Notes under the pieces: generated by a model | The model's database searches: none | What the model saw: only the letters and a program-made list of their open reading frames with translations | Told to the model about the DNA's origin: nothing | In this document: piece after piece, positions 31,835-40,982 of the stretch | How positions within the stretch are numbered: the first letter of the stretch is position 1 | Layout of the letters: each line of letters begins with the position of its first letter | Position numbers and translations under genes: made by a program | Source: an uncultured delta proteobacterium | GTDB lineage: Bacteria > Desulfobacterota > Syntrophia > Syntrophales > UBA2185 | Length of the DNA: 64,000 nucleotides | Assembly: GCA_963729715.1 (NCBI GenBank) | Contig: CAVSPA010000005.1 | Location: 64,001 to 128,000 of the forward strand | Direction: 5' to 3'

Positions 31835-31911
31835 GCCCCCGTAGCTCAGGCGGATAGAGCAACGGATTCCTAATCCGTGTGCCGCGTGTTCGAGTCACGC
31901 CGGGGGCACCA
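31835..31911 (+). tRNA. tRNA-Arg(CCT)
   Basis: Acceptor GCCCCCG/CGGGGGC-ACCA, D arm TAGCTCAG..GATAGAGC, anticodon arm ACGGA-TTCCTAA-TCCGT, TTCGAGT loop. Confidence 0.97.
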
Positions 31912-38861: not shown

Positions 38862-39359
38862 ACGAAGTGAAGGATTGCGAAGCAAAGAAGATTCAGGCGA
38901 ACACATATAATAATAAATTTTCTTATAGCGTCACAGTCTATCCATGACTACAGCACAAGCCATGCTCATTCGGGGTACATTCAGTGCACAAACAAATCAT
39001 AATTGCCTCACGAATGCCGCTGATCAGTTCGCAGATTCCCTCAACTAATTTCAATATCATCATAAATATTTCTTATCTCCAAATTTCGCTTTTTGTCACT
39101 TTCTCTCCTCATTCACACCAATTTAGAAAGTAGTATGTTCGCTCATACAAGCTTCCGGAATTTTATTCTGGAATGTATGTGTACTGGTATCGGTCACGGA
39201 AGTCACAGGAAACTATATTTGAGAATCAGGACAATGATGCGAGAAACAGAAATTTTTTAGATAATGTATGAAGTATTAAAAATATTTTCTTAAAAATCAA
39301 CATGCCCCGCGAGGGCACCACGAAGGCATGAAAATAAGTTGTTTATAGCTCTTTGACAT

Positions 39360-39505
39360 TATATCCTTTCTTCAAAAGGAAGAGGGTCGTCGATATTTTG
39401 GTGGTCATACCCCGAGTAGTAATCTGACCCGGGCAGATTAAAAGAACCACGGATTGTTACCCCTTTGGGAGTACGCGTATTAAATTTTTCATCGATAATC
39501 TGCCC
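39360..39505 (+). ncRNA. Candidate IS110 bridge/seek RNA
   Basis: Structured 5' non-coding end with stem-loops; contains CGTATTAA matching the element right end and CATACCCCG resembling the left end. Confidence 0.5.
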
Positions 39506-39528
39506 CCTTTTTTAAAGAGAAAGGAGAC

Positions 39529-40773
39529 ATGATTATGGGAGCCATTATTGAGAGATGCTGCGGTATCGATGTCCACAAGAAGAACATCGTTGTTTGCCTG
39601 GCGGTGGGCAAACCCCATGAGAAACCGAAGACAACCATCAAGACCTTTTCCACCATGACCCGTGATCTTCTGGCCTGTCGAGACTGGCTGGTATCAGAAG
39701 GTTGCACCCATGCGGTTGTGGAAAGCACCGGGGTTTACTGGAAGCCGGTATTCAACATTCTGGAGGACAGCATGGAGGTCATTCTGGCCAATGCCAGAGA
39801 TGTGAAAAATGTTCCCGGACGGAAGACCGACGTAAGGGATTGCGAATGGCTTGCCCAACTCCTTCGTCACGGCCTGGTCAAGGCGAGCTTTATTCCTCCC
39901 AAGCCGATCCGGGAGTTAAGAGACCTCACGCGCTACCGTGAGAAACTTACCCAGAAGCGTTCTTCTGAGATCAACCGCCTCCAGAAGTTTCTGGAGGATG
40001 CCAATATCAAGCTTTCTTCAGTGGCAACGGACATCAACGGGGTATCTGCCCGGAACATGATCCATCATCTGATCGAGGATGATATGAGCACTCAGGAAAT
40101 GGCTGATCTCGCCAGAGGGCGTCTCAGGAACAAGATCGAGGATCTGGAAAAATCCTTGGAGGGTTACTTTTCGGATCATCATCGTATCATCCTGAAACTG
40201 ACGCTTCAGATGATTGCCTCGTATGACGAGGCCATCGAGAAGCTGAACGATGAAATAGAGAAGAGGATGGAATCTTTCCAGGAGGAAGCTGAAGGTCTCC
40301 AGACCATTCCAGGTGTAAAAAAAAAGTTCGCTGAGCGGATCATCGCCGAGATCGGAATCGATATGTCACGCTTCCCATCAGATGCCCACCTCTCCTCCTG
40401 GGCGGGAGCCAGTCCGGGCAACAATGAAAGCGCGGGAAAACGAAGAAGCGGCAAAGTGACACAGGGGAACAAATGGCTCAAAAGCGCCTTGGTGGAAGCT
40501 GGATGGGCAGCGTCCAAAACAAAAAACACCTACTTGAGCGCCAGGTACCGTCGCCTGGCGGCAAGAAGGGGGAAGAAACGGGCAGCCCTTGCTGTCGGCC
40601 ACACCATCTTAGTTATGGCTTACCATATTATCAAAGAGCATCGCACTTACAATGAACTTGGTGCTGATTATTTCGACAAGTTAAATGAACAACATCTTGT
40701 CAGACGTTTAACATCAAGGATCACTGCCTTAGGCTATGAGGTCAAAGTAGAAAAACTGCCTGAAGCGGCTTGA
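39529..40773 (+). CDS. IS110-family transposase (DEDD RuvC + Tnp20)
   Basis: GIDVHKK, VESTGVYW, KTDVRD, TIPGV, NESAGK. Confidence 0.97.
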   Translation: MIMGAIIERCCGIDVHKKNIVVCLAVGKPHEKPKTTIKTFSTMTRDLLACRDWLVSEGCTHAVVESTGVYWKPVFNILEDSMEVILANARDVKNVPGRKTDVRDCEWLAQLLRHGLVKASFIPPKPIRELRDLTRYREKLTQKRSSEINRLQKFLEDANIKLSSVATDINGVSARNMIHHLIEDDMSTQEMADLARGRLRNKIEDLEKSLEGYFSDHHRIILKLTLQMIASYDEAIEKLNDEIEKRMESFQEEAEGLQTIPGVKKKFAERIIAEIGIDMSRFPSDAHLSSWAGASPGNNESAGKRRSGKVTQGNKWLKSALVEAGWAASKTKNTYLSARYRRLAARRGKKRAALAVGHTILVMAYHIIKEHRTYNELGADYFDKLNEQHLVRRLTSRITALGYEVKVEKLPEAA

Positions 40774-40982
40774 TGCACAGTTTTATTTTCGTATTAATAT
40801 TCGACAGTTTATTAGAAGCTGGTAAAGTTACTCTTTTTATTATTTTGAATCCACGAAAAGGACTTGACTGATTGTATGTTTAGATATATTTTTGCATAAA
40901 TTTCAAGCGGATATTGAGGATAATAGCAAGCAAGCTTGTTCTTCACATTATTTGAGAGGGACAGATAAACTGATTTCTCGAC

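What the first reader, a model, noticed from the sequence alone, without database searches (positions are those of the whole stretch)
39299..40797. IS110 with a readable candidate bridge RNA whose loops echo the element ends
Seen: about 200 nt of 5' non-coding sequence with stems CCTTTCTTC/GGAAGAGG, GTGGT..AATCTG/CAGATT..ACCAC and GGATTGTT..GATAATCT. CGTATTAA (39476-39483) equals the right end (40790-40797). CATACCCCG (39406-39414) matches CATGCCCCG (39301-39309) at 8/9. GTCGATATT is near-complementary to the right flank AATATTCGAC. A short sub-terminal IR is also present. Known: IS110/IS1111 recombinases use a non-coding RNA that pairs with donor and target. Inference: AA core, circle junction CGTATT-AA-CATGCC, empty site AAAATC-AA-TATTCG. 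Sub-terminal IRs together with an upstream RNA would be a mixed architecture. Short matches can arise by chance.
Basis: partly seen in the sequence, partly recalled or inferred. Interest (0 to 1): 0.7.

Follow-up and report, generated by a model that had tools for sequence, protein, structure and literature searches.

The report
Jumping gene with reversed RNA guides
This is a real RNA-guided jumping gene of a known family, but its guide RNA is arranged back to front compared with the textbook case and appears to aim it at the ends of its own relatives.

Summary
Real IS110 element (414-aa DEDD recombinase) with an upstream bridge RNA. The element spans 39295-40797 and the left AA core is at 39295-96, not 39299; this comes from sister copies and empty paralogous sites. 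The proposed stems fail covariation, and the CATACCCCG match is chance.

The supported fold has a target loop (39385-39429) and a donor loop (39431-39505). Across relatives, guides track DNA strongly: donor guide vs right end 4.97/5 (null 2.24); left target guide vs left flank 4.50/5 (null 1.72). The target guides run right-then-left, the IS1111 order, although the RNA lies upstream. A 21-member subclade has moved the same RNA downstream and kept that order.

The left target guide (GTAGT-AA) equals the right end of sibling elements, and an identical second copy sits exactly there. The window copy itself lies in a sibling's target that mismatches its own guide.

Verdict: new variant of a known kind; nearest named relative found is ISArsp3 (46.6%). 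This scan noted reversed guide order once before on other DNA. Circle formation and expression were not shown.

The parts
39295..40797 (+). IS110 element, core to core (1503 bp)
   Evidence: Identical over 39295-40800 to the copy on C7, with different flanks; paralogous empty sites fix the junction register for the C4 sibling and the C3 mini
39295..39296 (+). Left AA core (AAT is duplicated here; relatives show a 2-nt AA/AG core)
39301..39330 (+). Left-end palindrome CATGCC..GGCATG with inner GCCC-N5-GGGC
   Evidence: Seen in sequence; shared by all 6 left ends found in the genome
39330..39337 (+). Left sub-terminal inverted repeat GAAAATAA, about 31 bp inside the core
   Evidence: 8-bp perfect match here; mode 6 bp in 65 of 96 loci; distance 28-34 bp in most loci
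39339..39367 (+). Possible internal promoter (TTGTTT, 17 nt, TATCCT); inference only
   Evidence: Read by eye; the consensus scan found no site at its threshold
39385..39429 (+). Target-binding loop: stem 39385-89/39425-29 with an inner hairpin
39390..39397 (+). Right target guide TCGATATT, first in the RNA; complements the right flank
   Evidence: Exact match to the C7 right flank; 3.25/5 vs 2.13 across 69 classes
39416..39422 (+). Left target guide GTAGT + core AA, second in the RNA; equals the right end of the C4/L002 siblings and of the C7 mini
39423..39424 (+). TC dinucleotide matching the element's own left-end start (handshake-like)
   Evidence: 1.81/2 vs null 1.00, 84 classes
39431..39505 (+). 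Donor-binding loop: 10-bp stem 39431-40/39496-505, inner hairpin 39456-74
   Evidence: All 10 stem pairs show two-sided changes
39477..39483 (+). Left donor guide GTATT + core AA
39529..40773 (+). IS110 recombinase, 414 aa; D14, E65, D101, D104, S301
   Evidence: PF01548 + PF02371; NF033542; residue conservation
40783..40797 (+). Right end: sub-terminal IR TTATTTTC, left-donor sequence GTATT, AA core

Best explanation
An apparently intact IS110-family bridge recombinase element. The left non-coding end is transcribed into an RNA with two internal loops. The donor loop reads the element's right end (GTATT-AA). The target loop reads the target with the right-flank guide first and the left-flank guide second. 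This is the IS621 geometry with the DNA read in the opposite direction: a handshake-like dinucleotide follows the second guide and matches the other side of the donor. The element is inferred to circularise at the AA core and to insert at NNGTAGT-AA-TATCGA-like sites. In this genome such a site is made by the right junction of a sibling IS or a 76-bp mini, so the element stacks behind its kin, as the C7 copy does. The window copy sits in a sibling's target (TTAAA-AA). It most likely got there with the sibling's target loop acting in trans, or by insertion behind a host that was later lost. Shown: boundaries, fold, guide-DNA covariation, guide order, the C7 junction. Inferred: expression, circle, strand order, route into the window site.
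For: Boundaries. Fold: 93.8% of cells paired, 19 of 27 pairs with two-sided change, 0/500 shuffles reach it, slid controls 29-46%; RNAalifold independently recovers three of the four helices. Covariation: left target guide 56 of 84 classes perfect; donor guide 67 of 69; the two IS621-order controls are at null (z -0.9 and 0.7). Kin targeting: the C7 copy is inserted at a mini's GTAGT-AA end with an 8/8 right-guide match. 15 of 125 distinct left junctions carry the right-end TTTTC motif in register (background 0.18% per position); 5 of these have a mini or a transposase end directly upstream. In IS621 the two loops of one complex come from two RNA molecules (PMC11208158, passages).
Against: The window copy matches its own left guide at only 2/5. 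No right-donor guide signal was found (1.52/4 vs null 1.59). The single-sequence fold is not better than shuffles (z -0.72). No circle junction of the full element was seen in 4 runs of contigs. All targets lean towards a TATTTYC upstream motif, so the TTTTC count overstates kin targeting. Identity of a left guide with some donor guide is only weakly enriched (10 of 86 vs 4.9+-2.1). Permutations do not fully remove relatedness. The C7 region lies beside a 500-nt homopolymer that is probably an assembly artefact.
Confidence: 0.82

Rival explanations
1. The bridge RNA and reversed order are real, but kin targeting is incidental. The enzyme prefers a TATTTYC-like motif upstream of any target, and left guides drift or are copied from donor guides, so some land on relatives' ends without being a strategy.
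For: T/C bias at -12..-6 in all 125 junctions; L081 has the same guide pair but a left flank without TTTTC; the left guide equals the element's own donor guide in 2 of 99 classes and 4/5 in 8 more; only one in-register example in this genome.
Against: Five loci with a demonstrable relative directly upstream and a 4-5/5 guide match; the GTAGT/GTATT guide pair is kept in L081 at 87% DNA identity; L084 carries GTAGT yet sits in the target of L087, whose donor is GTAGT.
Confidence: 0.3
2. The window copy reached its site by half-match or off-target insertion using only the right guide, with no help from a sibling.
For: Its right flank matches the right guide with one bulge; half-match insertion is reported for IS621 (10.64898/2026.08.31.748434, first of six parts read).
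Against: Its left flank matches the left guide of the resident sibling C4 5/5. Three GTATT-ended minis (own C3, L194, L195) also sit in TTAAA-AA sites. Chance half-matching does not predict either.
Confidence: 0.2
3. One reading: ends at 39299/40797, donor junction CGTATT-AA-CATGCC, CATACCCCG as the right donor guide.
For: 8/9 match in this element and in L084.
Against: Copies share TCAA upstream of CATG and diverge only beyond 39295; no covariation; stems fail.
Confidence: 0.02

Closest known systems
ISArsp3 (ISfinder name as used in the PLSDB annotation, Arthrobacter sp. FB24 plasmid, L191)
   Same: 46.6% protein identity; hit by this clade's RNA profile upstream of the gene (E 5e-6); by eye the same layout, with an AG core and a donor guide equal to its right end
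   Different: It appears only in supplementary tables of PMC11208160 and PMC11187229; I found no description of its RNA
IS621 / IS622 (ISCro4) bridge RNA systems (PMC11208160, PMC11208158)
   Same: DEDD + serine recombinase, upstream RNA, target loop then donor loop, 2-nt core, handshake dinucleotide after the second guide
   Different: IS621 has the left guide first; a 328-aa protein only weakly similar (E 4.5e-10); a 2-3-bp sub-terminal IR; a junction promoter; and a right-donor guide, which is not detectable here
IS1111-group seekRNA elements ISEc11, ISPa11, ISKpn4 (PMC11187229)
   Same: Top-strand (right) match 5' of bottom-strand match; sub-terminal IRs
   Different: Their RNA is downstream and their proteins are 330-350 aa; here the RNA is upstream, the protein is 414 aa and the left IR lies about 31 bp inside
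ISPpu9 (PMC12288879 / 10.1101/2025.01.17.633520)
   Same: AG core, 43-bp left box with a GCCC-N4-GGGC palindrome, 16-bp right box, non-autonomous modules chained at the right end, strong internal promoter
   Different: Not compared by sequence here. Its chained module carries a regulatory sRNA and it targets REP repeats. Guide order is not stated in the passages read
IS4321/IS5075 and ISEc21 (target other mobile elements)
   Same: RNA-guided targeting of another mobile element (IS4321: reference title only; ISEc21: passage)
   Different: They hit unrelated transposons (Tn21 IRs, IS3 coding sequence), not their own family's right junction

Membership tests
IS110 family (bridge recombinases, broad) | RuvC-like DEDD domain plus Tnp domain with catalytic serine | tested here: met
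   D14/E65/D101/D104 in 121-122 of 122 and S301 in 118 of 122 aligned proteins
IS110 family (bridge recombinases, broad) | Non-coding RNA with loops that pair with target and donor | tested here: met
   Computational only:
IS110 family (bridge recombinases, broad) | Scarless recombination at a short shared core, no terminal IRs | tested here: met
   Filled vs empty paralogous sites for the C4 sibling and the C3 mini
IS110 family (bridge recombinases, broad) | Circular intermediate; RNA bound by the protein | not testable with these tools
   Only assembled contigs were available; no full-element junction seen
IS110 group (IS621/ISEc21 type) | RNA upstream of the gene | tested here: met
   Window and 129 of 163 loci upstream only
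IS110 group (IS621/ISEc21 type) | Bottom-strand (left) target guide 5' of top-strand (right) guide | tested here: not met
   Order is reversed; controls for the IS621 order are at null
IS110 group (IS621/ISEc21 type) | Sub-terminal IR absent or 2-3 bp | tested here: not met
   8 bp here; 6 bp or more in 91 of 96 loci
IS1111 group | Top-strand match 5' of bottom-strand match | tested here: met
IS1111 group | RNA downstream of the gene | tested here: not met
   Upstream here; downstream in 25 of 163 loci
IS1111 group | Sub-terminal IRs of 7-17 bp close to both ends | tested here: inconclusive
   8 bp here but mode 6 bp; the left copy is 28-34 bp inside the core
IS1111 group | Transposase of 330-350 aa in the IS1111 clade | tested here: not met
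   414 aa against the range in PMC11187229; no tree with IS1111 references was run

The most novel reading that the evidence does not exclude
A widespread 410-aa IS110 clade whose guide polarity is fixed by the enzyme lineage and not by where the RNA lies. Its members repeatedly reprogram their left target guide onto the right junction of close kin, so elements and minis stack in chains. RNA-only minis with variable guides and co-resident siblings supply target loops in trans, which makes a natural guide-swapping ecology among IS110s.
Probability: 0.45. Interest if true: 0.75.

Novelty: new variant of a known kind. Interest (0 to 1): 0.55.

Why it matters
The published rule ties guide order to group: IS110 upstream and left guide first, IS1111 downstream and right guide first. 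This clade breaks that coupling, and it shows the RNA moving between ends within about 55% protein identity with its order kept. That is a small-scale instance of the translocation proposed between the two groups. Anyone reprogramming these orthologues with IS621 rules would edit the wrong loop strand. Kin-end targeting would explain IS110 chains and attached modules, and the three co-resident guide sets in one genome give a direct test of whether target loops are swapped in nature.

Tried and rejected
Rfam: two chance hits only. Single-sequence fold: not significant. A 3-nt AAT core: fits this element, but relatives share only AA/AG. A regex parser failed on many loci and was replaced by HMM columns (156 rows; 123 loci had a parsed left end and 114 a right end; duplicate L083 dropped; one locus kept per guide class). 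Right-donor guide: no signal. A vestigial ribosome site behind the downstream RNAs as proof of direction: 1 of 25, rejected. Internal promoter: none at the scan's threshold, and my loose motif count had no control. Reads: contigs only, no piece spans the element, no full-element circle junction, and the RNA-run contig is a 92% sibling and does not show transcription. In one search the 'mini upstream' flags of L016 and L091 are mis-anchored and were not counted; L094's low score is a register error (4/5). L130's downstream hit is probably a neighbour's RNA (it also has an upstream hit). ISPpu9 was not compared by sequence.

Full report
OBSERVATION. ORF 39529-40773 is a 414-aa IS110 recombinase (PF01548 + PF02371; NF033542) with D14, E65, D101, D104 and S301 conserved among 122 aligned relatives. 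It lies in an island that starts at tRNA-Arg 31835-31911 with an integrase and carries a type I restriction-modification operon.

BOUNDARIES. The genome holds a second copy on C7, identical over 39295-40800, a 91% sibling on C4 with a frameshift, and 76-bp minis made of the two ends only. Left flanks diverge upstream of 39295, not 39299. Paralogous empty sites exist for the C4 sibling (C2:19448, C5:148188) and for the C3 mini (C3:6643), and they join the flanks at the same register. AAT is duplicated here, but relatives share only AA or AG, so the core is AA 39295-96 / 40796-97.

RNA. I took the 80 best of 298 genome loci and the 80 best of 574 metagenome loci, plus the three own copies. An RNA profile hit upstream of the gene only in 129 of 163, downstream only in 25, on both sides in 1 and nowhere in 8. 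On 38 of these sequences my two-loop fold pairs in 93.8% of cells, with two-sided changes at 19 of 27 pairs and 0/500 shuffles reaching it. RNAalifold recovers the target stem, its inner hairpin and the donor stem, but not the donor's inner hairpin. A single-sequence fold is unremarkable and Rfam has no model.

GUIDES (one locus per guide class, 2000 permutations; the DNA ends were anchored on motifs outside the guides). Second strand of the target loop vs left flank: 4.50/5, 56 of 84 perfect, null 1.72. Second strand of the donor loop vs right end: 4.97/5, 67 of 69, null 2.24. First strand of the target loop vs complement of the right flank: 3.25/5, null 2.13 (best of three registers in both). 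The two bases after the left target guide match the element's own left-end start (1.81/2, null 1.00; the register was fixed with the guide). Controls for the IS621 order are at null. No right-donor guide was detected. CATACCCCG does not track the left end. Relatedness is not fully removed, but the guides change among close kin.

WHAT IS UNUSUAL. (1) Order. PMC11187229 (passages; Results parts 1 and 4) states that IS1111 RNAs carry the top-strand match first and that the IS110-type ISEc21 is reversed. Here an upstream RNA has the IS1111 order, with a 6-8-bp sub-terminal IR whose left copy lies 28-34 bp inside. In IS621 the handshake bases follow the second guide (PMC11208158, passages). Here they do too but match the other side of the donor, so I infer the same geometry with the DNA reversed.

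(2) Relocation. 21 of the 22 downstream-RNA proteins among 122 form one clade (FastTree support 1.0). It is nested among upstream-RNA elements when rooted on a 30%-identical paralogue (inner nodes weak), and it keeps the same order.

(3) Kin targeting. The left guide GTAGT-AA is the right end of C4, L002 and the C7 mini, and the C7 copy sits at that mini's end with an exact right-guide match. One public contig also joins a mini's interior to a left end; this may be the same sample, and a mini circle would look the same. Among relatives, 15 of 125 distinct left junctions carry the right-end TTTTC in register, and 5 have a mini or a transposase end directly upstream (C7, L012, L013, L094, L132). 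Against this, all targets lean to a similar upstream motif, and left guides identical to some donor guide are only modestly enriched.

(4) The window copy is one of 9 loci whose left flank matches its guide at 3/5 or less (one of the 9 is a parse error). Its flank is the C4 sibling's target. L084 repeats the pattern with L087, and GTATT-ended minis also occupy TTAAA-AA sites. I favour trans use of the sibling's RNA, then loss of a former host, then half-match insertion.

MECHANISM. Transcription of the left end, possibly from an internal promoter (inference; one search found none), gives the RNA. The recombinase circularises the element at AA and inserts it where the two target guides match, which in this genome is a relative's right junction. 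Structure, guide identity, order and junctions are shown from sequence. Expression, the circle and the strand order are inferred from IS621, ISEc21 and ISPpu9.

PRIOR ART. Bridge RNAs, exceptions in RNA position (PMC11187229) and chained non-autonomous modules (ISPpu9; preprint passages and discussion, journal passages) are known. ISArsp3, 46.6% identical, has the same layout. Four paper searches and the passages read gave no description of an upstream RNA with right-first order, nor of guides aimed at kin ends. Also seen: PMC11208160 (abstract, passages, section 12, supplement search); PMC13626964, PMC13604230, 10.1101/2025.05.14.653916 and 10.64898/2026.08.14.744561 (passages); 10.1101/2025.10.25.684509 (first of five parts, passages); 10.64898/2026.08.31.748434 (first of six parts); 10.64898/2026.10.21.760802 (passages, section 8). 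[quoted passage not shown] S12 of the last preprint could already show this order.

VERDICT. A true IS110 bridge-RNA element with corrected anatomy, neither a textbook IS110-group nor an IS1111-group member: a new variant of a known kind, interest 0.55.

Noticed in passing
G000 C9:4933-5213, C4:527242-527519, C4:647003-647280 (L204, L211, L216): Three copies of a ~275-bp RNA-only mini element (left end + bridge RNA + right end, no transposase) of the downstream-RNA type, 97-98% identical but with three different right guides and two different left guides; near-full-length matches in 3 of 150 other genomes searched. Possible mobile guide cassettes.
   Followed up: partly
G000 C3:39340-39419, C7:315861 (minus); L193-L195, L197: About 76-bp minis consisting of the two element ends only, at TTAAA-AA sites, in this and three other genomes of the genus.
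   Followed up: partly
L188:1322-1603, L173, L094: Head-to-tail chains of minis with different right ends, and an IS-mini-IS chain.
   Followed up: partly
window 39254-39281 and 16 other places in G000: The sibling's target lies in a palindrome of type TTTTAAGA-N12-TCTTAAAA (17 hits allowing one mismatch per arm, clustered on C2, C3, C4, C5). It could be a recombinase site or operator of the islands; the dif-like look is recalled, not tested.
   Followed up: no
G000 C3:100910, 322496, 324342, 326748, 381616; C4:691645; C5:601911: A second IS110 (about 435 aa, 30% identical), 7 copies with three adjacent on C3; its upstream RNA is not hit by this clade's profile.
   Followed up: no
G000 C7:315900-316420: A 500-nt homopolymer between two copies of the mini's flank, next to a tRNA-like gene; probably an assembly artefact.
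   Followed up: no
window 31835-56000: Island at tRNA-Arg with integrase, HTH regulator, two HD-domain genes, a type I R-M operon with an inserted GmrSD-N gene, and an SNF2 helicase.
   Followed up: no
L084, L087 left flank: These relatives target a short palindromic repeat; L084's left-end start fits L087's handshake bases rather than its own, hinting at a lost host.
   Followed up: partly
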